DNA of 64,000 bases, from contig LCFP01000007.1 of NCBI GenBank assembly GCA_000999095.1, forward strand, positions 5,013 through 69,012. The letters are read 5' to 3'. This DNA is from Candidatus Gottesmanbacteria bacterium GW2011_GWA2_43_14. Its GTDB lineage: Bacteria > Patescibacteriota > Microgenomatia > 2-02-FULL-39-11. Made by a program: the position numbers and the translations under genes. Under the pieces are notes generated by a model. It searched no databases, was not told the origin of the DNA, and was given only the letters and a program-made list of their open reading frames with translations. Positions 5,192 through 29,673 of the stretch are shown here, one piece after another (position 1 is the stretch's first letter; each line of letters begins with the position of its first letter).

Positions 5192-6949
5192 TCAGGGAAT
5201 TGCACAGCCGTTAGTGACCTTCGGATCACAGGTGGCTTTTTGCAGTCCGGGTACGCGCTGAATTTGTTCGATTAACAGACTTAATTCAATGGCATCGATG
5301 GTGCCCTGTCGATACTGGTCAATATAGCTGCTGATGACTTCATTGGTTGATTGGCTGACGGAAGCGGTTCCCAGAGGATCAGGAAATTCAGCCGTAATAT
5401 CGACCTTAGCCGGCGGATTTACCTGGCAGACACTGGCCTGGCAGGAAGCCATATAATCAATATTTTCTATGACGACTCCCGCAGGTCCGTAAGCTTTGAC
5501 ATAGACGTCATATTTCCTGTCCGGAAAAAGATTGTTAAAGCGGTAGGGGAAAACTACCCCGCTTTGGATGCCTGCTTTGGGAATTTCTATTTTCCGTAAA
5601 TAGTTATCTCTGACATCATTGATCCAGACATAAACAGAATCAAATTGCGCTTTACTGGTAAAGTTCAGGATGACTTCCCCCGAGATTTCGGAATTAGGAG
5701 GCGTGCCGTAGCGGCACTCATACAAAATGTCAAAAGTATTTGGTGGGGAATAAGGCGAGGTGACATCGACACAGGCCTGGCTGTCATATCTCCAGTATGA
5801 GGCTATCTGGCGGTTGATTGGCTGTCCGGCTACCCGGAAACAGTGGCCGCTTCCGTCGGTTGAGCATTGTCCCTGGGGGTTGATACCGTCGACCGAAAAA
5901 GCCCTTTGGTCAGGATTTAAATTATTGCAGCTGACGTCCGTAAAATAAGAGATGTAGTTGGTATGGTTGCAGATTTCACCGTCGGGAGAATACCAGGCAG
6001 GTTTGGGAAGTGCAATCGGTGTTGCGCCGGGCGGAGGGGTAGAGCTTGGGGTTGGAGTATTTGCGGGTCTGTCAATGGTAAAGCTGACAACACAGGCCGG
6101 CTGCGGCGATGAGAATCCGGTATCATCAAGAATAAAATAACCGTTGACCTGGACTTTTAGAGGAAGTTTGTTCCCCCAGAGTTCATCGGGACGGTTCAGG
6201 TCATCGTAATAAACGGTAAATGTATGGCTGGTTGAGCCTGATTTAGGCACGATGACATTATAATGCTGGCCGCCGAAAATAATGGGTTTGGGGTTGCCGG
6301 GACCGTAGAGATTGTCCCTGTTATAAAAGAAAAGCTGGTAGTTGGTGATGGCGGTCCCTGCCGGGGGCAGACCGCTGATAGTGATTTGCAGGGATTGGCT
6401 GGGACTGAGGATGCCGCCTGAGATTGATGAACTCTGACAGACCGCGGGGCGGTATTCTTCCGTTTCTAAAAAACAGGCACTGTTGGTAGGCGACCAGCTG
6501 CCGCTGTCCTGGGCCATATAAGGCACGATTTGCACTCTTTTCAGTTTGCTTCCTAGAGGCAGATTCTGCTTCAGGTCGGTAATAAAAAGCTCAGCCGCGG
6601 AAACGGTTCTGGTACCCGTAGTTCTTTGGGTAGTGGTGGGATCTTTAAATATCAGCGGATACTGTCCGGCCGGACAATCAGTCGTCGGGATAACCACATC
6701 TCCGCCGACATTGGTACAGACCACCTGGCCGAGCGTCGGATCACCGGGTTCTTTAAAATCAAGATTACGGATCAGAAAATAAAAATTATTGACAGGGATG
6801 TCTGATGTGGACTTAAATGTTACGGTTTCATTGACTTTGAGGACAGCTTTGTCGATAGTTGCTCCCGTACAGGATTGGGCATATGTTTTTCCGGGCAAAA
6901 GATACAGAAAGAAGATACCCAGAAAAAGAACTGATAATATAGTTTTCAT
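5192..6949 (-). CDS. Secreted large protein (585 aa), paralog of the C-terminal part of the 7447-9750 product, ending ...IQRVPGLQKATCDPKVTNGCAIP.
   Basis: The signal peptide is MKTILSVLFLGIFFLYLLPGKTYAQ. Two internal regions align to the 767-aa neighbour (IDKAVLKVNETVTF.../IDKATIGPGESFTV... and ...YDVYVKAYGPAG.../...YELYVKAYDRQG...). A PTPSSTPPPGATP linker is present. Confidence 0.7.
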   Translation of the reverse strand: MKTILSVLFLGIFFLYLLPGKTYAQSCTGATIDKAVLKVNETVTFKSTSDIPVNNFYFLIRNLDFKEPGDPTLGQVVCTNVGGDVVIPTTDCPAGQYPLIFKDPTTTQRTTGTRTVSAAELFITDLKQNLPLGSKLKRVQIVPYMAQDSGSWSPTNSACFLETEEYRPAVCQSSSISGGILSPSQSLQITISGLPPAGTAITNYQLFFYNRDNLYGPGNPKPIIFGGQHYNVIVPKSGSTSHTFTVYYDDLNRPDELWGNKLPLKVQVNGYFILDDTGFSSPQPACVVSFTIDRPANTPTPSSTPPPGATPIALPKPAWYSPDGEICNHTNYISYFTDVSCNNLNPDQRAFSVDGINPQGQCSTDGSGHCFRVAGQPINRQIASYWRYDSQACVDVTSPYSPPNTFDILYECRYGTPPNSEISGEVILNFTSKAQFDSVYVWINDVRDNYLRKIEIPKAGIQSGVVFPYRFNNLFPDRKYDVYVKAYGPAGVVIENIDYMASCQASVCQVNPPAKVDITAEFPDPLGTASVSQSTNEVISSYIDQYRQGTIDAIELSLLIEQIQRVPGLQKATCDPKVTNGCAIP

Positions 6950-6952
6950 ATA

Positions 6953-7450
6953 TTATGGACTGATATCAATTTTGATTTCATGATTGCCGCTGATGAGATT
7001 TTTGCCCTGGGACATCAGCCGGCTTTGCTTTGAATCAAGAGAGATTATGGTAGGTCCGGTATTTTTTTTGGTGATAAAGCGGATAGTCACTGCAGGATTT
7101 TTTTCAGCCGCAAGTGCCGTTAAATGGAAAAGCCCCCGTATTCTTTCGGTTTTCACATCTCCCCAGAGGGACGGACTAGGGTCTACCTTTTCAACATCCA
7201 GATACTTAGGATCATAGGCAAGCCACAAATCAATCTCCTGTATCGGCTTCCGGCTTTCAAATGAGATACTCATTGGAAAAGTGGATTGAGTTTTGACTAT
7301 TTTTGCCGGTGTTTCTATCTTAATTTTTACTCCTATTGGAAGGATCAGCCGGATCGCGGCCAGGAATATAAAGACAGCCACGGCTGCCGTGAGATAGTAA
7401 ATGCGCCGGTTGTTTTTTTTATGGCGGATATTCCGGTTCTTTTTTTTCAT
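6953..7450 (-). CDS. Membrane-anchored cohesin-like domain protein (165 aa).
   Basis: A basic N-terminus is followed by one TM segment (YYLTAAVAVFIFLAAIRLIL). The extracytoplasmic domain carries an AYDPKYLDVEKV motif resembling the cohesin YDP-x-xL-x-V signature. It is a paralog of 10024-10575. Confidence 0.55.
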   Translation of the reverse strand: MKKKNRNIRHKKNNRRIYYLTAAVAVFIFLAAIRLILPIGVKIKIETPAKIVKTQSTFPMSISFESRKPIQEIDLWLAYDPKYLDVEKVDPSPSLWGDVKTERIRGLFHLTALAAEKNPAVTIRFITKKNTGPTIISLDSKQSRLMSQGKNLISGNHEIKIDISP

Positions 7451-9985
7451 GGGAGGTCACATCCTCCGGGAATTTTGGGATCACAAGTGGCTTTCTGCAG
7501 GCCCGGCACTCTTGTTATGCGGTGGATGAAGCGCGAAATTTCCAACGGGTCTGCCTGGTTATTGATCCATCTGTTGATCATGTCGTTAAAACGCTGGTTA
7601 ATTTGAGCGGGAGAGGCGTCAACCAGAGGATCGGGAAAAACCAATTTGAAATTGATGACCCCGTCAGGCATGCTTTGGCAGCTGTAACTGCCGCAGGAAC
7701 CTTCATTTATGACGCCGATATAATCAATGGCAGTACCCTGTCGGTCATAAGCTTTGACATAGAGCTCATACGTCTTGTCGTAGAAGAGGGGGGAAAAATT
7801 AAATCGGAATTTGGAATTGTTTTTAACATCTTCAGCTTTTTGTTCATGGAATGTCAGGTAGTTTTCGGCAGAGATGTCATGGAGGTAGACGATAATATTG
7901 CGGAACGGTTTGGCTCCCTCAAAGCTGACGCTGACTTCTCCCGTTATCCTGCCTTTGGGTTCGCTGGTGAAAGAACAGGTGAATAAGCGGTCAAAAATCG
8001 TAGCAGGAATGTCATCCCTGTCTGTAATCGGGGTGCAATCTTCAGAGCCCGAACGTATCAGATATTTCGGCGTGATTGCTTCATTGACGATGACACCGCC
8101 GGCTTTGTAGCAAAAACCTGTGCCGTCTTCATTGCAGCCGGTTTCTTCTTCACGATCGGATAAAGTGTCGCCTGACAGGTATCCTACCGGACTCAGGCAA
8201 AGTGAATCGTTATAGAGTTTGATAAAGTTCTTGTCTGTGCATTTTAGTCCGTCGGGAGCATACCATTCCAATGGATCGTTCGGATTGCCGACGCAGGTGG
8301 TTCCGTTCCAGCAGGCATTAGGGCCGCAATCACAGCCTGAGGTTAGAGCTTGGGTGCAGTTAATTTTAGGGTCTCCCGCCAGTTCACAACTGTCCACACA
8401 ACCGTTGGGGAAGACTTCCCATTTAAATCCCTGGTTTTCGCAGGCAAATTTTTCCGCATCGCTGCAGACAAGCTGGCATTCATTCTCGATGCATTTCGTT
8501 GAGCAATTTCCTCCAATTCCCGAACAAAAATCAGGGTCTTCGCACTGACCGGCAAGAAACTCTTTATTTTCGACGGTGCATTTACCGGTTTCTTTATCCA
8601 GGGCGCAGCCGCAGTCGAAATCAGTCTGGCAGAACAATTTTTCGGAAGCGGGGGTAGGTGTAATGGTGATATCGGGTTCGGGTGTGGGAACATCATCAGT
8701 TACCGATGACGAAACATGTCCGACACAGCCGATTTCAGCTACGGACAGCTGGCCGCCCGGACTCTGGAAAAAATAAGCATTGATCTGAATTTTTTGAACC
8801 GGCAAATTGCCGTTTCTGGCGTCAAGTTTGCCGAATATTTCCTCGTAGGAAATTGTTCTGCTGCCTGTTGTCCGCATCCCGGCCCAGTCAGGATCCTCGA
8901 ATATCAAATGGTGAGTGCCGGTAGGACAGTTGCCGACGATGCCGGTTACATCGCCGCCCTCGGCCACGCAGACCGATTTGGGATTTCCCGGACCGAAGAG
9001 ATTGTCCATGTTATAGAATTGGTACCAAAAACGGTTGATGGGAGTTTTGGAAAATGAGGTTACCGTAAAAGATTCTCCCGGACCGATGGTAGCCTTGTCT
9101 ATGGAGATACCCTGGCAGAGGTTTGGCCTGTCGGGACCGAGTGCCGATACAGGGGTTGCCGATGGTGCCGGTACTCCCGGATCGCCCGGGTCTTTACCCT
9201 GGCATACACAAATCGGCAAACCGTCCGATCCTTCGCCATCGGCCACACAAGTCCCGCCCGTGCCGCAGCTGGTTCCCTCGTCGTGGTTTTTGCAGTTGTT
9301 GTTCGATTCGGCTGAACAGGAGGTGCCTCCGCCCGGATAGCCGGGATCGCCTGGATCTCCGGGACCGCCGGGACCGCCGGGGTCACCCGGACCTGTAGAA
9401 GGCGCAGTGCAATTGCATATCGGATTCCCGCTGGTATCATTTGATCCGGTTATATTGCAGTTTTTGTCCGTAGCGCAGGCAAAGCCGAGATTTTTGCTTT
9501 TACAGACAGTTTCCGATGAAAGTGAAGAGCATTTCTGTTCACAGCAGGTGGATTGGATTCCGCAGTCTTTGACTCCTACGCTGTAATAGTTAGTATCGCA
9601 GGGAAGTTCCGCCAAAGGTGAACAGTATCCCTGGCAAAGCGGAGCTGTTGGGCAATTATCAGCAATATCGCCGCATTTTAAAATAGAGCCTACATAGCCG
9701 CATTTTCCAGGACAGTTTAAATCGGTTGTGCATGTCTGACCGGCGGACAATATCGCCGCATTTTAAAATAGAGCCTACATAGCCGCATTTTCCAGGACAG
9801 TTTAAATCGGTTGTGCATGTCTGACCGGCGGATGTACAAGAAGTTGAGGTCGCGGCCTGCTTTTGGGGGTTTTGGGGCTCAAGTGCGAGGCGGACAGCGG
9901 CGGCGACACCGACGACCATCGTCACCAGAAGCACCAATTCAATACCGGCAAACCCGGCCTGGCGGAATCTTCTAAATATTTTCAT
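7447..9985 (-). pseudogene. Giant type IV pilin-headed Cys-rich adhesin-like gene, about 830 aa if contiguous. An 85-bp tandem duplication splits it into ORFs 9659-9985 and 7447-9750.
   Basis: The N-terminus MKIFRRFRQAGFAGIELVLLVTMVVGVAAAV is a class III prepilin signal (G|F..E5). The 28-aa segment SAGQTCTTDLNCPGKCGYVGSILKCGDI is encoded twice, by the two repeat copies. The body has EGF-like Cys repeats, a collagen-like GPGDPGGPGGPGDPGDPGYPGGG run, and the C-terminal tag ...ITRVPGLQKATCDPKIPGGCDLP. Confidence 0.6.
9662..9831. repeat. Perfect tandem duplication of 2 x 85 bp (9662-9746 and 9747-9831).
   Basis: I checked base by base that the two 85-bp copies are identical. Because 85 is not a multiple of 3, the duplication shifts the reading frame of the pilin-like gene. 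Confidence 0.9.
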
Positions 9986-10023
9986 TATTTCTGATTTTTT
10001 ACAGTTTCCTAATCAACTGATCC

Positions 10024-10575
10024 CTAAAGAATATTCACGTCCAACTGGTCAATTCGTTTCGGATCGAGAATATTGATGCCGTTGGTGGCCACGATCGTTT
10101 TTGTCCGGTCAAAGTTAATTTCGGTTTTGCCTTTATTTTCGGTGGCCTGGAATACGATTTCAGCTACGGTTTCTTTGCCCTTTGGCAATATAATTTCTTT
10201 GCCGTCAAAGGTGGCCACTCCGGAAACCTTCACATAGCCGCTGCCGCTGACGTTGATAGGGTAATTGGCGAAAAAATTACCGGTTGAAACTGAAGTGACT
10301 TTCAGGTATTTCGGGTCGAATGCCACTACAAAGTCAGCCGCGGCCACTTCGGTTTTACCGGAATCAAGAATCAAGGTAACTTTGAAATCTTCCCCGGCCG
10401 GGATCCGGCTGTTTTCGGCAAGGAGATCCAGTTTGGCTTCCTGTTTGATTTCACCTTCCTTCGGCGCTCTTTTTTGCTGGATGATATAAGCAGCCAGAAG
10501 GCCGATTATAAAAAAAAGTGTAAGGATGAATAATTTGCTGGCAGATTTTCCGGTTGAAACTGGTTTTTCCTCCAT
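10024..10575 (-). CDS. Membrane-anchored cohesin-like domain protein (183 aa), paralog of 6953-7450.
   Basis: It has an N-terminal TM segment (LFILTLFFIIGLLAAYII) and an FVVAFDPKYLKVTSV motif. It is the first gene of the minus-strand cluster. Confidence 0.55.
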   Translation of the reverse strand: MEEKPVSTGKSASKLFILTLFFIIGLLAAYIIQQKRAPKEGEIKQEAKLDLLAENSRIPAGEDFKVTLILDSGKTEVAAADFVVAFDPKYLKVTSVSTGNFFANYPINVSGSGYVKVSGVATFDGKEIILPKGKETVAEIVFQATENKGKTEINFDRTKTIVATNGINILDPKRIDQLDVNIL

Positions 10576-16391: not shown

Positions 16392-16467
16392 TTGACAAAG
16401 CCGGTACATATCAGTAAAAAATATAAAAGGGAATTGCCCCCCAGAGAATCCGGGGGGGATTTTTTTT
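16392..16467 (+). promoter_or_regulatory. Putative sigma70 promoter and a leader hairpin with an 8-T tract, ending 5 nt upstream of the purA ATG.
   Basis: TTGACA at 16392-16397 and an A/T-rich -10 near 16415-16427. The stem CCCCCC (16437-16442) pairs with GGGGGGG (16452-16458) and is followed by TTTTTTTT (16460-16467). Confidence 0.45.
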
Positions 16468-16472
16468 GGCAG

Positions 16473-17717
16473 ATGAATTTATCTAAAACCACGGTCGTGA
16501 TAGGCTCGCAATGGGGTGATGAGGGCAAAGGCAAGATCGTAGATTTCCTGTCGGCCAAATCGGATTTTATCGTCAGGTTTCACGGCGGAAATAATGCCGG
16601 ACATACGGTCGTAAACAGCCTCGGTACTTTCAAAATGCATCTTATTCCGTGCGGCGTCTTTTACCCGGGTACTAAACTGGTTATTACTCACGGAGTAGTC
16701 ATCGATCCGCTGACACTTATCAAAGAAATTAAGACTTTGGAAAAATCTGGCGTTTCCCTGGAAAATAGGCTTTTCATTTCACCCCGCGCCCACATTATTA
16801 TGCCTTACCACCGTTTGCTTGATTCCCTTTATGAAAAAAATAAGGGAAAAAATAAGACCGGTACGACCGGCCGGGGGATAGGGCCTGTTTATGCCGACAA
16901 AGTAAGTTACATGGGTATTCGCCTGGAAGATCTGGTTTCGCCAGCTGTTTTTAAGGAAAAAATTGCCCTCTATCTGCCTATCAAGAACAAAATCATCAAA
17001 GCTCTCGGCGGCAAACCTCTTTCTTTTTCCAAAATATTGAAGGAATATACCCTTTATGCCCGCGCCCTGAAAAAATACGTCACTGAACCGTATTTCGTTC
17101 TTGCGGAGGCAGCCGGAAAAGGCAAGCGTATTCTTTATGAAGGTGCCCACGGAATTCTGCTTGACAATGATTGGGGGACGTACCCTTTTGTGACAGCTTC
17201 TTCAGTCCTGCCGGATATTTCCGGTAAAAGCTCAGTCATCGGCATTGTCAAAGCCTATTCGACAAGAGTCGGTGAAGGGCCGCTGCCTACCGAACAGGCA
17301 AACGGCATCGGCGAGAAATTAAGAAAAATAGGGGATGAGTACGGTTCAACCACGGGACGCCCGCGGCGATGCGGTTGGTTTGACGCCGCTCTGGTCAGGT
17401 TTGCCGCGAGAGTCGGGGGTTTTACCGGAATTGCCTTGACCAAACTTGATGTTCTCTCGGATTTTAAAACCATAAAAGTGTCAGTCGGTTACCGCGGCAA
17501 CGGCAAAAATCAGGGCATTTCGGGTTTGGATTTGAAAAAAGCCAAACCCGTTTACCGGACTTTTAAAGGATGGGGGAAGTCCCTTGATAATATTACTTCA
17601 TACAAAAACCTGCCAACTGAAGCGAAAAAATACATAGAATTTATTGAAAGTTTTGTTCAAGTTCCGGTCAAATACATATCAACCGGGCCATCCAGGTCCG
17701 CCTTAATAAATCGATGA
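16473..17717 (+). CDS. purA: Adenylosuccinate synthetase.
   Basis: GSQWGDEGKGK, GHTV, GIGPVYADK and TTGRPRRCGW. The real start is the ATG at 16473 (MNLSKTTVVIG...). Confidence 0.9.
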   Translation: MNLSKTTVVIGSQWGDEGKGKIVDFLSAKSDFIVRFHGGNNAGHTVVNSLGTFKMHLIPCGVFYPGTKLVITHGVVIDPLTLIKEIKTLEKSGVSLENRLFISPRAHIIMPYHRLLDSLYEKNKGKNKTGTTGRGIGPVYADKVSYMGIRLEDLVSPAVFKEKIALYLPIKNKIIKALGGKPLSFSKILKEYTLYARALKKYVTEPYFVLAEAAGKGKRILYEGAHGILLDNDWGTYPFVTASSVLPDISGKSSVIGIVKAYSTRVGEGPLPTEQANGIGEKLRKIGDEYGSTTGRPRRCGWFDAALVRFAARVGGFTGIALTKLDVLSDFKTIKVSVGYRGNGKNQGISGLDLKKAKPVYRTFKGWGKSLDNITSYKNLPTEAKKYIEFIESFVQVPVKYISTGPSRSALINR

Positions 17718-18799
17718 TCAGAACAATCAGACTGGCATTAACTTATGATGATGTTCTTTTGGTGCCCAAACGTTCTTCTTTAAGGTCGCGCAAAGACGTT
17801 GATACTTCCACTTTTCTGACAAGGGAAATAGAATTGAAAATTCCCGTTGTCTCCGCCAACATGGACACGGTGACGGAAGTGCAGATGGCGGTCTCCATGG
17901 CAACATTGGGGGGCATAGGCTTTATCCACCGTTTTTTAACCGTAAACGAGCAGGCCAACCAGATAGCCAAAGTGAAAAAAGCGAAAGTCAGCGATAAAAA
18001 TTTGCGGGCGACGGTTGGCAAGAACGGTAAACTGGCGGTTGGTGCTGCCGTCGGGGTCAAACCCGATGCCCTTGACCGGGCAAAGGCAGCGATTAGCGCC
18101 GGTTGCGATGCTTTGGTCTTGGATATCGCCCACGCTCATGCTGATTCCGCCCTTGAAATCCTGGCTAAATTGAAAAAAAATTTCCCCAAAATCCCGGTAG
18201 TCGCCGGCAATGTGGCAACAGCCGAGGGCACCCGCGACTTAATTAAAGCCGGGGCTGACTGTATAAAAGTCGGCATTGGTCCCGGATCGATGTGCACCAC
18301 CAGGATTATTGCCGGGGCAGGCATACCGCAACTTACGGCTGTTATGGATTGCAGCAAAGTGGCACGTCCTTTGAAAATTCCGATAATCGCCGACGGCGGC
18401 ATCCGCATTCCGTCTGATCTGTCAAAAGCCATCGGAGCCGGAGCCTCGACTGTCATGATCGGCGGTCTTTTTGCCGGCACGACGGAAAGTCCGGGCATGA
18501 CGGTCAACCGTCAGGGCAAGAAATATAAAATATCCCGCGGCATGGCCTCGGTCGGTGCCAATACAGAGAGGATGGAAATGGAAGAACTGCATGAGTATGT
18601 GGCCGAAGGGGTCGAAGCCTTCGTGCCTTTCAGGGGGGAAGTCGAAGAGGTTGTCTCCCATTTGATCGGAGGTTTAAGGTCGGGCATGAGCTATTCCGGC
18701 GCCAGAAATATCAGGGAATTCTGGAAGAAAGCCGAGTTTATCCGCATAACTCCCGCCGGCCGCCAGGAAAGCCTGCCCCATGACGTGGAATTAATGTAA
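17714..18799 (+). CDS. IMP dehydrogenase / GMP reductase family enzyme without CBS domains (361 aa).
   Basis: Catalytic loop GIGPGSMCTTR and a TIM-barrel. It overlaps purA by 4 bp. Its size fits GuaC or a CBS-less GuaB. Confidence 0.75.
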   Translation: MIRTIRLALTYDDVLLVPKRSSLRSRKDVDTSTFLTREIELKIPVVSANMDTVTEVQMAVSMATLGGIGFIHRFLTVNEQANQIAKVKKAKVSDKNLRATVGKNGKLAVGAAVGVKPDALDRAKAAISAGCDALVLDIAHAHADSALEILAKLKKNFPKIPVVAGNVATAEGTRDLIKAGADCIKVGIGPGSMCTTRIIAGAGIPQLTAVMDCSKVARPLKIPIIADGGIRIPSDLSKAIGAGASTVMIGGLFAGTTESPGMTVNRQGKKYKISRGMASVGANTERMEMEELHEYVAEGVEAFVPFRGEVEEVVSHLIGGLRSGMSYSGARNIREFWKKAEFIRITPAGRQESLPHDVELM

Positions 18800-18819
18800 T
18801 TTTTTATTATTATATATTC

Positions 18820-18860
18820 TTGACATATTTAATGTAAATGTTAAAATTTAATGTAAATGA
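18820..18860 (+). promoter_or_regulatory. Promoter with a direct-repeat operator for the vapBC module.
   Basis: TTGACA at 18820-18825 and TAAAAT at 18842-18847. Direct repeats TTTAATGTAAATG at 18828-18840 and 18848-18860 overlap the promoter. Confidence 0.45.
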
Positions 18861-19108
18861 TTCACTACGTTACCATTACTTCCCAGGGACAAATTACCAT
18901 ACCCGCAAAACTCAGACGCAAATTTAATTTCGGGAAAAATAAAAAAGCGATTGTTTCCTATACTGAAAATGGAATTTTGGTTGAACCGGTAAAGGATATC
19001 TTGGAGTTTGAAGGGATCTTTAAGACTGATAAAAAAATTCCTTTTAAAAAAGCCAGGAAGGCATTCGTCGAGTATTTGGCTAGCAGAAGTTCGAGAATTA
19101 GTAAATGA
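18857..19108 (+). CDS. vapB: AbrB/MazE-type antitoxin (VapB-like).
   Basis: VTITSQGQITIPAKLRRKF is a swapped-hairpin barrel motif. It is coupled to the downstream PIN gene through an ATGA overlap. Confidence 0.7.
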   Translation: MIHYVTITSQGQITIPAKLRRKFNFGKNKKAIVSYTENGILVEPVKDILEFEGIFKTDKKIPFKKARKAFVEYLASRSSRISK

Positions 19109-19491
19109 AGCAATATTTGATAGACACGAACTATCTTCTAAGATTTCTGCTATCAGATGTACCTCAACAAACAAAAATCGTCAGACAGTATTTTATACAG
19201 GCAAAACTTGGCGAAACTGAAATAACCATTCCTTATTTGGCAATAATTGAATTGGATTTTAATTTAAGCAAGCTATATAGATTTTCCAAAACGGAAGTCG
19301 TAGAAAAATTATTTACCCTAATTTCAATTCCATATTTAAACTTTGAGAAGAGAGAATTATTGATAAAAGCTATCCCATTATATAGACAGGTAAATTTTGA
19401 CCTTGTTGATATTTTATTCTTCTGTGAAGCCAAATTGACGGGAAAAGAGCTCCTTACTTTTGACCGCAAGTTGAAAAAGCTGAAAGATTAA
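19105..19491 (+). CDS. vapC: PIN-domain toxin (VapC-like).
   Basis: YLIDTNYLLRFLL is the N-terminal PIN motif. The product is 128 aa. Confidence 0.65.
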   Translation: MKQYLIDTNYLLRFLLSDVPQQTKIVRQYFIQAKLGETEITIPYLAIIELDFNLSKLYRFSKTEVVEKLFTLISIPYLNFEKRELLIKAIPLYRQVNFDLVDILFFCEAKLTGKELLTFDRKLKKLKD

Positions 19492-19515
19492 GAAGAAATG
19501 GTCCTGCCTAACGCT

Positions 19516-20949
19516 TTACTGGTTTCGAAAAACGACGCCTTCTCTTTCAGGACTAAAAGAAGTGAAGGTAACTGGGACTTCAGCAATTTCACTGATACGG
19601 TCCAAATAATTCTGCGCGTTTTCAGGCAACTGTTCCCAGTCTTTGATTCCGGGTTGAATTTCTTCCCATCCCGGTAATGTTTCGTATTTCAGATCTTCCG
19701 GTTCCCAATATTTTGTATCATCAACCCTGTGAATGGTTTCAACCCATTGACCGTCAATTTTATAAGCCACGCATATTTGCGGTTCCAGTCCCGATAAAAT
19801 ATCTAGCTTTGTGACTGCTATTTCAGTCATTCCAGACGATTTTGCTGCGTACTTAAGCAATACTCCGTCAAGCCAGCCTACTCTTCTTGGCCGGCCGGTA
19901 GTTGTCCCATATTCATCCCAGGGATTAGCACCAGTTCCGCGGAGTTTCCAGGCAATTTCGTCCGATAATTCTGTCGGAAAAGGCCCTCCACCGACTCTTG
20001 TCTGGAAAGCTTTGGTTACTCCGATTACTCGGTCAAATCTGGAAGAAGGAATATTAAACGATTCTTCCATACCGATCGGACCTGGGTGACTCGAGGTTAC
20101 AAAAGGATATGTACCCCCTGTTAAATCAAGTAGATGGCCTTGAGCACCTTCTCCAAGTCCATCCTTTCCATGATTTAGTAGATTATGAGCTCTCGTAATA
20201 GTATCACCCATATATGGTTTAATTTGCCCCAATTGTTTTCTTAGGGTTTCAGTTTCTTTTTTTATATCCAATGGCTCGTCTGAAGTTGCTGCCTGTAATA
20301 AATTCAGATATCTTTGTTCAGACGCACTTAGATTTTGTGATGAAGCTTTATCAGTCAATATTTCAATAGTCTCAGCAACTCCGGGGTGTTGAGCCATCGC
20401 TCTAATTAATGGGATTCTCTCTTCAAAATAATTTTTTAGGTCAGTATCGAAATTTGCATTTTCAAACCAACCCATTTCCGGCCCTCGGCGGGATGTTCTT
20501 TGGGTATAAGCAGGTCCGATGCCCCTTAATGTTGTTCCAATTTTTCCTCCCTGCACGGCTTCTTTAAGGGCATCTTCCATTAACATGTCCTTTGTAATGA
20601 TTCTGGTATGGTTATCAATTAAGTACCTGTCAGGGTCCACGTCAATATTTCTATTATGTAGCATATTCAATTCATCAAGTAAGGTAGTTGGATTTACAAC
20701 CACTCCTCTTCCGATCATGACAGCCAATTCCGGTCTGACAATAGCAGATGGAGTTAAATGCAATTTAAATATTTCTTTTCCGACAGTGACAGTATGGCCG
20801 GCATTATCACCGCCCCCGTATCTTGCTACCCAATCGGCGTTTTGTGAAAGTAGATCTACCATTCTTCCTTTACCCTCATCACCCCATTGAGTACCTACAA
20901 TGACATCTAATTTTCCTTGTCCTGGCAGTCGATCTGGATTTACCGGCAT
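19516..20949 (-). CDS. Divergent second adenylosuccinate synthetase paralog (477 aa).
   Basis: GTQWGDEGKGR, GHTV and TTGRPRRVGW are purA motifs. There are long insertions relative to the purA at 16473, and the local sequence is AT-rich. Confidence 0.75.
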   Translation of the reverse strand: MPVNPDRLPGQGKLDVIVGTQWGDEGKGRMVDLLSQNADWVARYGGGDNAGHTVTVGKEIFKLHLTPSAIVRPELAVMIGRGVVVNPTTLLDELNMLHNRNIDVDPDRYLIDNHTRIITKDMLMEDALKEAVQGGKIGTTLRGIGPAYTQRTSRRGPEMGWFENANFDTDLKNYFEERIPLIRAMAQHPGVAETIEILTDKASSQNLSASEQRYLNLLQAATSDEPLDIKKETETLRKQLGQIKPYMGDTITRAHNLLNHGKDGLGEGAQGHLLDLTGGTYPFVTSSHPGPIGMEESFNIPSSRFDRVIGVTKAFQTRVGGGPFPTELSDEIAWKLRGTGANPWDEYGTTTGRPRRVGWLDGVLLKYAAKSSGMTEIAVTKLDILSGLEPQICVAYKIDGQWVETIHRVDDTKYWEPEDLKYETLPGWEEIQPGIKDWEQLPENAQNYLDRISEIAEVPVTFTSFSPEREGVVFRNQ

Positions 20950-21131
20950 AAAATATATCTCCTGTTAAATTTTAAGCGTTATGAAATATAGGGGGCAGAA
21001 TTAGAACTATATATAAACTTTTATGATTGTTACGTCAATAGTCTTGTATGATTGGAAAGAACGGATTAGGCGATCAGGGTAATCAGCAGAGACATGTTTT
21101 GATCCTGTTGCATCCAGATGTTATGGATTGA

Positions 21132-21201
21132 CAAAAGTAATTGATATTTTGATTGGAGGTTTAAGGTCGGGCGTGAGCTATTCAGGCACCCGCATTACAT
21201 G
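21132..21201 (+). pseudogene. Fragment of about 22 codons duplicating the 3' end of the IMPDH-family gene at 17714-18799.
   Basis: 21153-21193 is about 90% identical to 18661-18700 (LIGGLRSGVSYSG versus LIGGLRSGMSYSG). An upstream in-frame TGA sits at 21129-21131, and there is no start codon. Confidence 0.6.
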
Positions 21202-21304
21202 AAAACTTCCGTAGATTTTGAATTATTGACTTCCGTTCTCACGTTTTCTATTATATCTTAGTTTATCTTTCCTGCTTGTTTTAATTTCACCTTAAACTTT
21301 ATAT

Positions 21305-22069
21305 ATGACTGTTATCGCAGAGACACTTACTCCAAGAATAGAATTAAATGTTGTTTCTCCTGATAAAAATAATTTACCACTTCACGGTTTAGAAGTAATT
21401 ATCGGAAATCACGATTTTATATTGCCTTATATTGATGTGGCAAAAAAGGGGGAAGGTCATACTTTAATTCCCTTTTTTGATCCCAGACCGGCAGTTAATC
21501 ATGATTTAATGTTGGCTGGTGCAAGGGAGTTGGCCATCGGATTAGTTAATTCAGGAGCAGATGTTGTTTTTACTCCAAAATCAAAAAAATCCGTACCTAT
21601 GATAATAGAAACAGTAAAAATTGCGGGTGAGATATCCGGTAAAAAGATAAAGTTATTTGTAATAAAAAGGGGACTGCTTTCTGATTTTGATGAAACAGAT
21701 GAAAAACCGATAGATTTTGAAACTATTACTCCTCCATATAAGAAATATATGGCTTTAAGTAAAGTTCAGACTTTAGAGATACAACAAATGCAGAAAGAAT
21801 TTATAAATCAGGGAAGAAAAATAAATGCAGTCATAGCTGATGATGTTATCAGTCGTGGGGGTACGGTTAGGGCATTAAGAAAGGTAGTTGGTAAGGTGTT
21901 AAATTATGAAGATTTTGAAATTCCTGCTTATGCTGTAATCCAGGAATTTCCGATTACTTGGGGATTGGGGCAGATACCCGGTGGGCCCAAAATTGATGGA
22001 GGAATATGGACTCCTGAACCGCAGGAATATAATTATCCCGCCATTATGACTCCGGTCATCATAGGATAA
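21305..22069 (+). CDS. Type I phosphoribosyltransferase-fold protein (254 aa).
   Basis: AVIADDVISRGGTVRAL matches the PRPP-binding motif (hhhhDDhhxxGGT). It lies in a purine context. Confidence 0.5.
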   Translation: MTVIAETLTPRIELNVVSPDKNNLPLHGLEVIIGNHDFILPYIDVAKKGEGHTLIPFFDPRPAVNHDLMLAGARELAIGLVNSGADVVFTPKSKKSVPMIIETVKIAGEISGKKIKLFVIKRGLLSDFDETDEKPIDFETITPPYKKYMALSKVQTLEIQQMQKEFINQGRKINAVIADDVISRGGTVRALRKVVGKVLNYEDFEIPAYAVIQEFPITWGLGQIPGGPKIDGGIWTPEPQEYNYPAIMTPVIIG

Positions 22070-22071
22070 AT

Positions 22072-22296
22072 ATGCCTAATACGAGTGAATTTCCTTCATC
22101 TTTATATAAAATTTACGGAAGTGAAATTCCAGGGGGTGTAGTTGCTCCATGTGGATCATGCGGCCAACCGGATGCGCAACTTGCGGCGACCAGAATAATT
22201 TATCAACCAACTGAAGCCGGGAAATTTTTTGGAGCGGAACTAAAATCAGAAATTATTTCCGGCGGACATTCAGGTTGCAAAGGGAACGGTGGGTAG
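22072..22296 (+). CDS. Small hypothetical protein (74 aa).
   Basis: It is tightly coupled, starting 2 nt after the PRTase stop. There is no homology evidence. Confidence 0.25.
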   Translation: MPNTSEFPSSLYKIYGSEIPGGVVAPCGSCGQPDAQLAATRIIYQPTEAGKFFGAELKSEIISGGHSGCKGNGG

Positions 22297-22353
22297 AGTG
22301 AATAAAAAATTAATTGACATAGGTTATTTTATAGGCTAGAAGTAATAGCAATT

Positions 22354-23634
22354 ATGCAGGTTGAATTAACTTCTTTTAATTTAGAGAAAGCTATAGGATT
22401 GCCTCCGGAAGGAATAATTTTCACCCGACCTGAAGTGGCAACTATTAATCCGTTTCTGTTTTCGTCGGATGAATTCAGGACCCGTTTGGTTTTAAAAGAT
22501 GATCAAGTCGCATTTGACCCGGTATTTTTGTATGACTTGTTCGTTATTTCCCAAGCTATTGATGAAACAATAAATCAGAATGCCTCAGTTTTTCCGGATA
22601 TAAAGGACCAGGTGGGGAAGGGAGAATTCCGAGAACTGGTCAGACTGCATGATTCTGAAAAAATGAAGCAGGTGCAGAAAAATTTCATACGCACTCTTAA
22701 AACAGCCCGGGAAGACGTTGAAGAACAGGGACGAAAAGTGGTCATGGCTTTTCCTATATGGGGGTCACTGGCTATCATGAGGGCCATGGAGCGGGAACAA
22801 ATACCTCAGGAAGTTCTTCAACCTGCGGATATATCAGGATCACTGGGTACTGAAACAGGACACGCCAAAGCGGAAAAACTTGCTCCTGAATTGTTGGATC
22901 CTGAGAAAGTCGTTTTTTTCCCGGATGATATCTTTGACACCTGCGTAACTTTAATTGAATTAGGTATTGAAAGAGCAAAAGTAAAAGTAGCAAGAAATGG
23001 GTTAAAAATAAATCACGATATTTTTCAGGACGTTGAAGCTTTCGAGGATAAAATGAGATTAGCCAGAAAAGGTTTATTATCGCAAGAAGAGACGGTCAAA
23101 GTCTGGAAGGATTTGGCAGAATTGTTATGGGAAGTAGATATAATTTCTGCCCCTTTTTCAATTAAAAATCCGCCTTTTGCTGATGCGGTTATTACACTTT
23201 CAACTAAAGTTTGGAAGGATCCTGATTCTTCGGATTGGGACAGAAAGAAAGCAGCAATTCAAGGACAACTGATGTTTCAAACTCATTACATTAATCCGGA
23301 CAACTGGATCATCGGCGGGCGATGGGAAGGAATTCCTTTATTGGATACGAAAGTTAGCGGAAAGACTGTCATGGATTTACTTGCCCGAGATCAGGAAAAG
23401 TATTTGATCACAGAAAAACAATTAAGAAACCTTCAGCAAGCCGGGCTAGACATTCTGAGCTTCAGGGCATTTTCCGGATTGGACGGTTTGTGGGTATTTA
23501 ATCCGGATGGTTTAAACGTAGATAAAGTTAGTGATAATTTCGACAGGGATCTGCTTCCTGAAAATCAGTTGGTTCAGCTTTATGCGGGGTATATTTCAGC
23601 CTATGCTCAAAAACGCTGGCCTGAAATAAATTAA
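22354..23634 (+). CDS. Hypothetical protein (426 aa).
   Basis: A long ORF in the cluster with no recognisable domains. There is a weak PRTase-like patch, VVFFPDDIFDTCVTL. Confidence 0.5.
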   Translation: MQVELTSFNLEKAIGLPPEGIIFTRPEVATINPFLFSSDEFRTRLVLKDDQVAFDPVFLYDLFVISQAIDETINQNASVFPDIKDQVGKGEFRELVRLHDSEKMKQVQKNFIRTLKTAREDVEEQGRKVVMAFPIWGSLAIMRAMEREQIPQEVLQPADISGSLGTETGHAKAEKLAPELLDPEKVVFFPDDIFDTCVTLIELGIERAKVKVARNGLKINHDIFQDVEAFEDKMRLARKGLLSQEETVKVWKDLAELLWEVDIISAPFSIKNPPFADAVITLSTKVWKDPDSSDWDRKKAAIQGQLMFQTHYINPDNWIIGGRWEGIPLLDTKVSGKTVMDLLARDQEKYLITEKQLRNLQQAGLDILSFRAFSGLDGLWVFNPDGLNVDKVSDNFDRDLLPENQLVQLYAGYISAYAQKRWPEIN

Positions 23635-23717
23635 CGGAAGATTTTTTGCCATTAAAGATCTGATTGTTTATACTTTCGTATTAAAAGTTTAATAGATTAC
23701 TTAAATCATTAAATAAT

Positions 23718-25262
23718 ATGCCTCAAGAGGCAGTTAAACCTTTTTATAAACGCCATGACGAATATCTTCGGAATCAGCATGAAACCGGTCTGCCTCCGGT
23801 CGGTTTAACCTTTGAGGATACTCTTATTTTGCCCGCACATTCAACAATTCCTTCAAGAAAGGACGGAAGCATCAGTTTACTTTCACATATTGCCGTAGAT
23901 GTTTATGTGAATTCTCCTATCATGACATCAAATATGGATACGATTACGGAGTGGCGGATGGCTGAAAGAGTGGCATTGTTGGGAGGAGTGGGAGTGATAC
24001 ACCGCTATTTAACATCAGATGAACAGGCGAGACAGGTTAAGCTGGTAAAGGACAGGACGCGTACTTTTCAGGACCGACCTTTTTCCGTTTATCCAGAAGC
24101 AACCATAAAAGATATGAGGAAATTGCAGAAAGATCATAAAACCGGATATTTTTTGGTTCAGGATTTGGAAAATAACCTTTTAGGAATTGTGACTGACAGG
24201 GATTTGGAAAGTACCGATGACCATCATACCCAGGCATTTAATATAATGACACCCCGTGATCAGTTGGTTACAGTTCCGGAAGGTACAACTCCTGAAGAGG
24301 CTGAAAATGTGATGAAAGTGTATAGAAAACAGAAAGTGCCGGTTTTGTCTGCTGACGGAAAAGTCGTGGGAGTATATACCAGAAAAGATTTTGAATTGGC
24401 AAAGAAATACCCGAGCGCTTCCAGGGACAAAAAAGGTAAGTTAATTGTTGGGGCAGCTGTCGGAGTAAAAGACGCAGATGCTGAAACTGAAAGGGCTTAT
24501 AAATTGGTGGATGCGGGCGTTGATTTTCTTATCATCGATATCGCGCACGGTGACAGTGAAAACATGATGAAAATGCTTAAAAGATTAACCAAAGATAAAT
24601 ATATTAATGTCCCTGTTATTGCCGGTAATATCGCTACCGGTGAAGCGGCAGAGGCATTAATCGGGGAGGGAGCTGATGGATTAAAGGTAGGAATAGGGCC
24701 TGGTTGGGCTTGTGATACCAGAGTTGTTGCAGGTGTGGGAAGGGCTCAGTTATCAGCTATAGCCAGTGTTGCGGCCGTGGCTGTTGGTAAAAATATTGCA
24801 GTTATTGCCGATGGGGGAATGCGGAACCCGGGGGATCTGGTTAAAGCGCTGGTTGCCGGAGCTGATATCGGCATGTTTGGAGGAATGTTCGCGGGTACGG
24901 AAGAAACCCCGGGTATAATAATAAAAAGAGGCAATAAAAAATATAAAAGATACGTAGGAATGGCATCAAGGGAAGCTAGAAAGAGGGCTAAATACGCACA
25001 ACAACCTGTTCAAACAATCGGACTGTATGAAGATCGTTTTTCTGATCAGGATGCAGAGGATGAAGAGCCTGCTCCCGAAGGAAGGGAAAAAGAAATACCT
25101 TTCCGCGGACCTGCAACTGATGTCTTTAAATTTATTGAAGGTGGTGTCAGATCGGGCATGAGCTATATTGATGCAAAAACTATCCCTGAAATAAGGGAAA
25201 AAGGAGAATTGGAAAGAATTACTCAAGCGGGTGCGACAGAACAATACGGTGATATAAGTTAG
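23718..25262 (+). CDS. Divergent IMP dehydrogenase-like protein with a CBS pair (514 aa).
   Basis: GGVGVIHRY and a CBS segment GIVTDRDL. The catalytic loop is GIGPGWACDTR, with the Cys retained. There is a large acidic insertion near the C-terminus. Confidence 0.7.
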   Translation: MPQEAVKPFYKRHDEYLRNQHETGLPPVGLTFEDTLILPAHSTIPSRKDGSISLLSHIAVDVYVNSPIMTSNMDTITEWRMAERVALLGGVGVIHRYLTSDEQARQVKLVKDRTRTFQDRPFSVYPEATIKDMRKLQKDHKTGYFLVQDLENNLLGIVTDRDLESTDDHHTQAFNIMTPRDQLVTVPEGTTPEEAENVMKVYRKQKVPVLSADGKVVGVYTRKDFELAKKYPSASRDKKGKLIVGAAVGVKDADAETERAYKLVDAGVDFLIIDIAHGDSENMMKMLKRLTKDKYINVPVIAGNIATGEAAEALIGEGADGLKVGIGPGWACDTRVVAGVGRAQLSAIASVAAVAVGKNIAVIADGGMRNPGDLVKALVAGADIGMFGGMFAGTEETPGIIIKRGNKKYKRYVGMASREARKRAKYAQQPVQTIGLYEDRFSDQDAEDEEPAPEGREKEIPFRGPATDVFKFIEGGVRSGMSYIDAKTIPEIREKGELERITQAGATEQYGDIS

Positions 25263-27365: not shown

Positions 27366-27400
27366 AACCTGGGAGGTAGCGCAGATACGCAACCTAGGGG
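27366..27400 (+). repeat. REP-like palindromic element, copy 1.
   Basis: AACCTGGGAGGTAGCGCAGATACGCAACCTAGGGG, located between the convergent genes tsf and the TraD-like gene. Confidence 0.7.
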
Positions 27401-29604: not shown

Positions 29605-29673
29605 GTGGTTTAAGTATAGATTTTCCCTGTGCAAATTAAAAGTTGTATAATCACGCGAATCCGAAGGTCTTAT

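What the first reader, a model, noticed from the sequence alone, without database searches (positions are those of the whole stretch)
9662..9831. Perfect 85-bp tandem duplication frameshifts the pilin-like adhesin gene
Two 100%-identical 85-bp units are adjacent, and I checked them base by base. Because 85 is not divisible by 3, the duplication separates the pilin N-terminus (9659-9985) from the 767-aa body (7447-9750). Each ORF encodes the same 28-aa peptide SAGQTCTTDLNCPGKCGYVGSILKCGDI. Removing one unit restores a single ORF. There are three possible explanations: recent pseudogenisation, a slipped-strand ON/OFF switch for a surface adhesin (phase variation), or an assembly artefact.
Basis: seen in the sequence. 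Interest (0 to 1): 0.6.

Follow-up and report, generated by a model that had tools for sequence, protein, structure and literature searches.

The report
Misassembled in-frame repeat, not a switch
The perfect 85-bp duplication that splits this surface-protein gene appears only in this one deposited assembly; all other public assemblies of the same groundwater bacterium show an intact gene or an in-frame 111-bp repeat, so the frameshift is most likely an assembly error at a truly repetitive site.

Summary
The window has a perfect 85-bp x 2.0 tandem repeat at 9663-9832, one base off the stated coordinates. It splits a minus-strand gene into a 108-aa N-terminal ORF and a 767-aa body ORF. Removing one unit gives one 817-aa ORF.

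The window is contig UV73_C0007 of Candidatus Gottesmanbacteria GW2011_GWA2_43_14, a short-read metagenome-assembled genome (MAG). I recovered 12 other public contigs of this locus, from 11 assemblies of the same aquifer. None carries the 85-bp junction. Across window 1-20004, the only 31-mers missing from all of them are the 30 that span that junction.

The other assemblies show three things:
- One copy and an intact 817-aa gene (two contigs).
- A different, in-frame 111-bp (37-aa) duplication with a new junction base (five contigs; one fully resolved, one hinting at three or more copies).
- Contig ends or a 100-N run at the module.

Best reading (about 0.8): the site holds a real in-frame tandem module that varies in copy number, and it was misassembled into a false frameshift. 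Phase variation and pseudogenisation are not supported, but only reads can fully exclude them. Interest is low. The practical result is a corrected gene model: the GenBank protein (722 aa) is truncated.

The parts
9748..9832 (-). First copy (in gene direction) of the 85-bp unit TCCGCCGG...GCGGCGATATTG
   Evidence: TRF; sequence
9663..9747 (-). Second copy of the 85-bp unit. It starts exactly 99 bp before the point where the one-copy and two-copy alleles of other assemblies diverge (A versus T after GCCCA).
9718..9777 (.). Span of the 30 31-mers that cross the 9747|9748 junction (GCGGCGATATTG|TCCGCCGGTCAG in gene direction). These are the only 31-mers of window 1-20004 absent from every other public assembly of the locus.
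   Evidence: junction search
9649..9840 (-). Region corresponding to the true 107-bp module CTTGTACA + 85-bp core + CTGATAATTGCCCA. It encodes a 6-Cys segment CTSAGQTCTTDLNCPGKCGYVGSILKCGDIADNCP. Other assemblies carry it once, or as tandem copies with a 111-bp period joined by TCAG.
9659..9985 (-). N-terminal ORF (108 aa) created by the frameshift. It contains MKIFRRFRQAG|FAGIELVLLVTMVVGVAAAV, a class-III-signal-like motif followed by a hydrophobic helix.
   Evidence: the N-terminus is conserved in homologues P0002 and P0003
7447..9750 (-). Body ORF (767 aa from a mechanical TTG start). GenBank annotates only 722 aa of it (KKS97569.1).
7447..9985 (-). The whole gene as it stands in this record. 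The corrected product is 817 aa with one module or 854 aa with two.

Best explanation
The 85-bp perfect duplication is most likely an error of the deposited short-read assembly (IDBA-UD-era MAG, contig UV73_C0007) and not a feature of the organism. Just after the pilin-like N-terminus, the gene truly carries a 107-bp module encoding a 35-aa, six-cysteine segment. In the aquifer population this module occurs once (817-aa protein) or as in-frame tandem copies with a 111-bp (37-aa) period, joined by four bases TCAG (854 aa with two copies, possibly more). A perfect repeat longer than the assembler's largest k-mer, possibly mixed with a one-copy allele, forms a loop in the assembly graph. Different pipelines resolved that loop differently: collapse to one copy, a break, a 100-N placeholder, or two copies. 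In this record two sequence pieces that both contain the module core appear to have been butted together. That leaves an 85-bp duplicate without the real 26-bp inter-copy segment (CTGATAATTGCCCA-TCAG-CTTGTACA), and so produces a false frameshift.

Shown directly:
- The junction is absent from every other assembly.
- One-copy and 111-bp in-frame alleles exist in other assemblies.
- Assembly breaks coincide with the module.

Inferred:
- The exact way the artefact arose.
- That the one-copy and multi-copy alleles truly coexist, as expected from replication slippage or unequal recombination between 107-bp identical repeats.
For: (1) Source and method. The window is Candidatus Gottesmanbacteria GW2011_GWA2_43_14 contig UV73_C0007. 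The reads are from PRJNA268031 groundwater filtrates and the MAGs from PRJNA273161.

(2) L002 (ENA ERZ27254745, k141_1507503, 70.7 kb) has no substitutions against the window over 20 kb and differs by only two indels. It has one unit and encodes P0006, 817 aa, identical to my restoration. L006 also has one copy.

(3) L001 (with L004 and L012, excerpts of the same scaffold), L005, L007, L010 and L013 carry a different junction, AATTGCCCA-TCAG-CTTGTACATCC. This is a 111-bp in-frame repeat containing a base (T) not present in the one-copy sequence, so it must come from reads. L007 resolves two copies with the ORF open. L010 shows a second such junction after copy 2.

(4) Contigs end or start at the module in L005, L008, L009, L011, L013 and L014. 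L003 starts about 45 bp downstream of it. L001 has exactly 55 bp of copy 2 followed by exactly 100 N.

(5) The 85-bp junction is found in none of them. The 30 31-mers spanning it are the only window-specific 31-mers in window 1-20004.

(6) The window equals the two-copy allele minus 26 bp with no microhomology. The second unit begins exactly 99 bp (k-1 for k = 100) before the allele branch point, which is what a de Bruijn contig boundary would give.

(7) Chen et al. 2020 (PMC7111523) describe these error classes for IDBA-UD: duplicate sequence at scaffold joins, and wrong repeat number in local repeats.

(8) Homologues P0002 and P0003 have the same N-terminus fused to long bodies, so an uninterrupted gene is the family norm.
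Against: I had no reads, so absence of the junction is inferred from other assemblies only. The genomes of that study are reported to have been checked for unsupported sequence with ra2.py. If that check was applied after the final edit, an unsupported junction should have been flagged. The left boundary of the join, 93 bp into the module, does not correspond to an obvious k-mer length, so the artefact mechanism is only half explained. The one-copy contigs could partly reflect collapse or pruning by the assembler. I did not establish which ENA assemblies come from the same sample as the deposited MAG.
Confidence: 0.8

Rival explanations
1. The 85-bp duplication is a real allele and acts as a reversible ON/OFF switch (phase variation). 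Duplication of 85 bp turns the surface protein off. RecA-independent deletion between the two perfect copies turns it back on.
For: The unit length is not a multiple of 3, and the copies are perfect and adjacent, which is the configuration that reverts easily. An intact one-copy allele exists in the same aquifer. The same 100-bp stretch is clearly prone to duplication, as the 111-bp allele shows. Surface proteins are typical targets of such switches.
Against: The OFF junction occurs in one record only and in none of 12 other contigs from 11 assemblies. The variation that is reproducible is in frame. There is no microhomology at the junction. The site is a demonstrable assembly trouble spot.
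Confidence: 0.07
2. The 85-bp duplication is a real, recent loss-of-function mutation (pseudogene) in the strain that dominated the GWA2 sample.
For: The sequence is as deposited. Another assembly (L003) carries a different frameshifting change, a 143-bp deletion, in the same gene. That could mean the gene is often lost.
Against: This faces the same objections as the phase-variation reading. In addition, L001 and L002 are 70-kb contigs with almost the same ends and no substitutions against the window, so they probably represent the same dominant population, and they lack the junction. The L003 deletion lies within about 310 bp of a contig end, and L013 and L014 do not reproduce it.
Confidence: 0.08
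3. There is no real repeat at all. The gene is single-copy in every cell, and both the 85-bp and the 111-bp duplications are artefacts.
For: Two assemblies give a clean one-copy gene.
Against: The 111-bp junction contains a base change (ACAG to TCAG) that is absent from the one-copy sequence. It recurs in five contigs from four assemblies made by at least two pipelines, from at least three samples or runs: SAMN03202995, SAMN03202999, SRR1658344 and SRR1658466. Assemblers do not invent the same new base repeatedly.
Confidence: 0.04

Closest known systems
Local assembly errors of short-read metagenome assemblies: duplicate sequence at scaffold joins, and wrong repeat number in local repeats (Chen, Anantharaman, Shaiber, Eren and Banfield 2020, PMC7111523)
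   Same: The duplicate is perfect and exactly two-copy, with no microhomology. It lies at a site where other assemblies break, insert Ns or disagree on copy number. The record comes from a short-read groundwater MAG study of the era and lab that paper discusses.
   Different: That paper describes duplicates flanking an N-run. Here no Ns remain in the record. The duplicated length (85 bp) equals neither the real repeat period (111 bp) nor a standard k-mer overlap, although one boundary fits k-1 = 99.
In-frame tandem-repeat number variation in bacterial surface proteins, for example the alpha C and Rib proteins of group B streptococci (named from my own knowledge)
   Same: DNA repeats are near-identical and their period is a multiple of 3. 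They lie in a predicted surface protein, and copy number differs among sequences from one population.
   Different: There is no sequence relationship to those families and no Pfam hit. Only 1-3 copies are seen. The host is an uncultured CPR bacterium. Copy-number differences are inferred from short-read assemblies, not from isolates.
Phase variation by spontaneous tandem duplication inside an ORF, for example the pneumococcal type 3 capsule gene cap3A (Waite et al. 2001; recalled from my own knowledge, not checked here)
   Same: As written, the record shows a perfect out-of-frame duplication of tens of bases within a surface-structure gene.
   Different: In this population the out-of-frame duplication is not reproduced by any independent assembly. 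The reproducible duplication is in frame.
Modular type IV pilins, that is a pilin N-terminus fused to a large functional module, for example Streptococcus sanguinis PilB and PilC (from my own knowledge)
   Same: The N-terminus reads G|F-x-x-x-E followed by a hydrophobic helix, then a long extracellular body. This layout is conserved in homologues P0002 and P0003.
   Different: No prepilin-domain profile matches. No pilus machinery was found among the window ORFs scanned against Pfam. The body has no recognisable domains.

Membership tests
Short-read assembly artefact (duplicate left at a join, or wrong repeat number) | The junction sequence is absent from independent assemblies of the same population | tested here: met
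   The 85-bp junction is absent from all loci L001-L016. Its 30 31-mers are the only window-specific ones in window 1-20004.
Short-read assembly artefact (duplicate left at a join, or wrong repeat number) | The site coincides with contig ends, N-runs or copy-number disagreement in other assemblies | tested here: met
   L001 has a 100-N run. L005, L008, L009 and L011 end at the module, and L013 and L014 start at it. L003 starts about 45 bp downstream. Different assemblies give 1, 2 or at least 2 copies.
Short-read assembly artefact (duplicate left at a join, or wrong repeat number) | No sequencing read spans the junction | not testable with these tools
Phase-variable (ON/OFF) contingency locus | The repeat unit changes the reading frame | tested here: met
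   85 = 28 x 3 + 1. The frame is broken in this record.
Phase-variable (ON/OFF) contingency locus | ON and OFF alleles that differ only in unit number coexist in the population | tested here: not met
   The ON (one-copy) allele is seen in L002 and L006. The OFF allele appears only in this record. The other alleles differ by 111 bp and stay in frame.
Phase-variable (ON/OFF) contingency locus | Reversible switching at high frequency | not testable with these tools
   This needs cultures or deep read data.
In-frame tandem-repeat length variation of a surface protein | The period is a multiple of 3 and the copies are near-identical at DNA level | tested here: met
   The period is 111 bp. The copies share 107 identical bases, and the remaining four bases differ at one position (TCAG versus ACAG). 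The ORF stays open, giving 854 aa.
In-frame tandem-repeat length variation of a surface protein | Copy number differs among members of one population | tested here: inconclusive
   One copy in L002 and L006, two in L007, and two plus a further junction in L010. All are short-read assemblies, so collapse or loop traversal by the assembler cannot be excluded.
Type IV pilin / pseudopilin | Class III signal: G|F(M)-x-x-x-E followed by a hydrophobic helix | tested here: met
   The sequence reads RQAG|FAGIELVLLVTMVVGVAAAV. The motif is conserved in P0002 (SG|FAALELV) and P0003 (AG|FAGIELV).
Type IV pilin / pseudopilin | Match to a prepilin N-terminal profile (PF07963 or TIGR02532) | tested here: not met
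   No such hit in Pfam at E <= 0.1 or NCBIfam at E <= 1.
Type IV pilin / pseudopilin | Prepilin peptidase and pilus assembly genes in the genome | tested here: inconclusive
   None among the 24 window ORFs scanned against Pfam. The rest of the genome was not examined.

The most novel reading that the evidence does not exclude
The 85-bp out-of-frame duplication is real and coexists with the one-copy allele and the 111-bp in-frame multi-copy alleles. It may also coexist with the 143-bp frameshifting deletion seen in L003. The first about 700 bp of this pilin-like surface-protein gene would then be a duplication and deletion hotspot that both resizes the protein and switches it off in an uncultured CPR bacterium, for example under phage or host-contact selection.
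Probability: 0.1. Interest if true: 0.55.

Novelty: not a real feature. Interest (0 to 1): 0.15.

Why it matters
The practical value is a correction. The public record of this MAG splits a gene. The GenBank and UniRef protein (KKS97569.1, A0A0G1DIP8, 722 aa) lacks the first 95 residues, which include the membrane-anchor or signal region and the first Cys-rich module. The real product is 817 aa, or 854 aa with two modules.

The case also shows that a perfect tandem duplication in a short-read MAG should be checked against independent assemblies before it is read as a pseudogene or a switch.

The biology underneath is a 37-aa six-cysteine module, next to a pilin-like N-terminus, that varies in copy number in situ. 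This is an ordinary kind of surface-protein length polymorphism, though it is rarely documented in CPR bacteria.

Tried and rejected
- An exact 32-mer from inside the unit, searched in metagenome contigs and genome contigs, gave 0 hits.
- Protein-level scans of both collections with P0006 gave no confirmed relatives. No further alleles came from those sources.
- An exact look-up of the 108-aa N-terminal ORF found nothing on record. No gene caller in the collection recorded that product.
- Pfam and NCBIfam scans of the restored protein, its paralogue and the neighbours gave no significant hit. The exception is the upstream 183-aa protein, which has a cohesin domain. The 'pilin' and 'adhesin' labels therefore stay motif-level.
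- The homologue search found only 5 proteins, so the family is too small for a profile or a useful structure prediction. I did not run structure prediction.
- I considered programmed frameshifting or two genuine separate genes. I rejected both because the one-copy allele encodes the uninterrupted protein and the homologues are uninterrupted.
- I tried to derive the artefact from simple abutment of two k = 100 contigs. The right boundary fits (99 bp) but the left boundary (93 bp into the module) does not, so the precise origin stays open.
- I could not retrieve the original study's methods text. The description of ra2.py is second-hand.

Full report
**1. What the window shows**

Tandem Repeats Finder reports a single array at 9663-9832 with period 85, 2.0 copies and 100% identity. 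It is the only long tandem repeat in the 64 kb.

The gene lies on the minus strand. ORF 9659..9985 (108 aa) starts MKIFRRFRQAGFAGIELVLLVTMVVGVAAAV. ORF 7447..9750 (767 aa) is the body. Both encode SAGQTCTTDLNCPGKCGYVGSILKCGDI. Deleting one unit gives one 817-aa ORF.

**2. Where the sequence comes from**

The body ORF is 100% identical to KKS97569.1, hypothetical protein UV73_C0007G0012 of Candidatus Gottesmanbacteria bacterium GW2011_GWA2_43_14. That protein sits on a 70,872-bp contig and is annotated as only 722 aa. This is a short-read MAG from aquifer groundwater filtrates. The reads are in PRJNA268031 and the MAGs in PRJNA273161.

**3. Independent assemblies of the same locus**

The 90% cluster of that protein contains an 817-aa member, P0006, which is identical to my restored protein. 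Look-ups of P0001, P0006, P0007 and the two flanking genes returned 16 loci. These represent 12 distinct contigs from 11 ENA, JGI and Logan assemblies. I compared all of them with the window.

- **One copy, gene intact.** L002 (ERZ27254745, k141_1507503, 70,677 bp) has no substitutions against the window over 20 kb and differs by only two indels. L006 (ERZ27254739) is also single-copy.
- **A different duplication.** L001 (with L004 and L012, excerpts of the same scaffold; ERZ28564302, SAMN03202995, scaffold_857, 70,804 bp), L005 and L013 (ERZ978281, SRR1658344), L007 (ERZ28564412, SAMN03202999) and L010 (ERZ909595, SRR1658466) all contain the junction AATTGCCCA-TCAG-CTTGTACATCC.
  - This is a tandem repeat with a 111-bp period. 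The copies share a 107-bp identical module, CTTGTACA + the 85-bp core + CTGATAATTGCCCA. The remaining four bases read TCAG between the copies and ACAG after the last copy.
  - It is in frame: ...CGDIADNCP-SA-CTSAGQTC...
  - L007 resolves two copies with the ORF open. Built into the full gene this gives 854 aa.
  - L010 runs through two copies into a second TCAGCT junction, which hints at three or more copies.
  - L005 ends just after the junction and L013 starts just before it.
  - L001 has exactly 55 bp of copy 2, then exactly 100 N, then the rest of the module. From my own knowledge, that layout is what a metaSPAdes scaffold with k = 55 looks like at an unresolved loop.
- **Contigs that stop at or near the module.** L008 and L009 end 10 bp into it. 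L011 ends 16 bp before it. L014 starts inside it. L003 starts about 45 bp after it.

**4. The 85-bp junction is unique to this record**

GCGGCGATATTG|TCCGCCGGTCAG occurs in none of the other loci. In window 1-20004, the only 31-mers absent from all other assemblies are the 30 with start positions 9718-9747. Those are exactly the 31-mers that cross the junction.

The window sequence equals the two-copy 111-bp allele with the 26-bp inter-copy segment CTGATAATTGCCCATCAGCTTGTACA removed, without microhomology. The second 85-bp unit begins exactly 99 bp before the base where the alleles diverge. A contig from a k = 100 de Bruijn graph would begin at that point, and to my knowledge 100 is the default maximum k of IDBA-UD. 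The left boundary, 93 bp into the module, has no such explanation.

**5. Interpretation**

The T in TCAG is a base that the one-copy sequence lacks, and it recurs across pipelines and samples. The 111-bp repeat is therefore real. A 107-bp perfect repeat exceeds k = 100 and k = 55, and so forms a loop in the assembly graph. That explains the breaks, the N-run and the disagreement on copy number.

Chen et al. 2020 (PMC7111523) list the relevant error types as common, especially with IDBA-UD:
- sequence unsupported by any read;
- Ns inserted although the flanks overlap, so that the duplicate must be removed;
- a wrong number of local repeats.

The 85-bp duplicate fits that class. My estimate is 0.8 for an artefact and about 0.15 for a real out-of-frame allele, whether a switch or a pseudogene. 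The main caveats are:
- I had no reads.
- The study's curation script (ra2.py) is meant to flag unsupported sequence.
- The one-copy contigs could owe something to graph pruning. However, k = 141 contigs that run flank-module-flank are hard to obtain without reads from a one-copy allele. This last point is my own reasoning.

**6. What the gene is**

The N-terminus has the class-III-signal pattern G|F-x-x-x-E followed by a hydrophobic helix. That pattern and a following QNPQKQAAT linker are conserved in the only two sizeable homologues, P0002 (1000 aa) and P0003 (791 aa). Both are uninterrupted. No prepilin profile matches, and none of the 24 window ORFs I scanned against Pfam is a pilus-machinery gene. 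'Pilin-like' is therefore motif-level only.

The body has no Pfam domain. It is rich in cysteine modules and Gly-Pro stretches. Its C-terminal segment, ending RVPGLQKATCDPK, is shared with the downstream 585-aa paralogue. The upstream neighbour is a membrane-anchored cohesin-domain protein. A cell-surface role is a reasonable inference and nothing more.

**7. How the real feature probably works (inferred)**

Two or more 107-bp identical copies in tandem are substrates for replication slippage and unequal recombination, so copy number should drift. Each step adds or removes a 37-aa, six-cysteine module between the membrane-proximal helix and the rest of the protein. This changes length or exposure, not expression. 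It is analogous to repeat-number variation in Gram-positive surface proteins. It is not a homologue of those proteins and not an ON/OFF switch.

**8. Verdict**

The frameshift is most likely not real. Novelty is 'not a real feature' and interest is low. The useful outputs are the corrected gene model (817 or 854 aa) and the read-level test that would settle the matter (see the decisive next steps).

Noticed in passing
window 18827-18845: The window and L001 carry a 19-bp insertion relative to L002, in the spacer between the MazE-like antitoxin gene and the IMPDH-family gene. In gene direction it reads TTTAACATTTACATTAAAT, a 14-bp direct repeat plus 5 new bases. It is the only other difference between the window and L002 over 20 kb.
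   Followed up: partly
window 9150-9292 (L003 313/314): JGI contig Ga0209211_10007983 (L003/L015) lacks 143 bp of the same gene. The deletion is bounded by a 3-bp CTG microhomology and is also frameshifting (product P0007, 616 aa, starts in another frame). It lies about 310 bp from the contig end, and L013 and L014 do not reproduce it. It could be a real deletion allele or another assembly error.
   Followed up: partly
window 9330-9393: An imperfect 9/18/27-bp tandem repeat encodes a Gly-Pro stretch (GPGDPGGPGGPGDPGDPGYPGG) between Cys-rich modules. Homologues P0002 and P0003 have poly-Gly or poly-Pro linkers at the equivalent place.
   Followed up: no
window 5192-10575, minus strand: The gene cluster runs: cohesin-domain membrane protein (10024-10575, PF00963, E = 3e-10), the 817-aa pilin-like protein, a 165-aa membrane protein with cohesin-like sequence but no Pfam hit (6953-7450), then a 585-aa paralogue with an ordinary signal peptide (5192-6949). 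The two large proteins and P0002 share a C-terminal segment ending (R/D)(V/A)PGL(Q/K)(K/T)AT(C/F)DP. By eye its helix resembles half a dockerin, but I did not test this.
   Followed up: no
GenBank KKS97569.1 / UniRef100_A0A0G1DIP8 (window 7447-9615): The public protein entry is 722 aa and starts at an internal Met. It lacks the first 95 residues of the real 817-aa product.
   Followed up: yes
L007 151-181: The two-copy contig from SAMN03202999 has one further substitution against the window, at about position 181 in the dCTP deaminase gene. The one-copy contig L006 has none. L006 has nearly the same ends as L007 and may come from the same sample. Two closely related strains may therefore coexist.
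   Followed up: no
window 16392-25262: There are two adenylosuccinate synthetase genes (16392-17717 on the plus strand, 19516-20949 on the minus strand) and two IMPDH-family genes (17714-18799, 23718-25262). They surround a PIN/MazE toxin-antitoxin pair.
   Followed up: no
window 27394-29697 (-), 32730-34379 (-): A 767-aa protein carries TrwB/VirD4-type coupling-protein and HerA-type ATPase domains. A DUF6909 protein gives a very strong match (E = 1.7e-178). Both sit among housekeeping genes.
   Followed up: no
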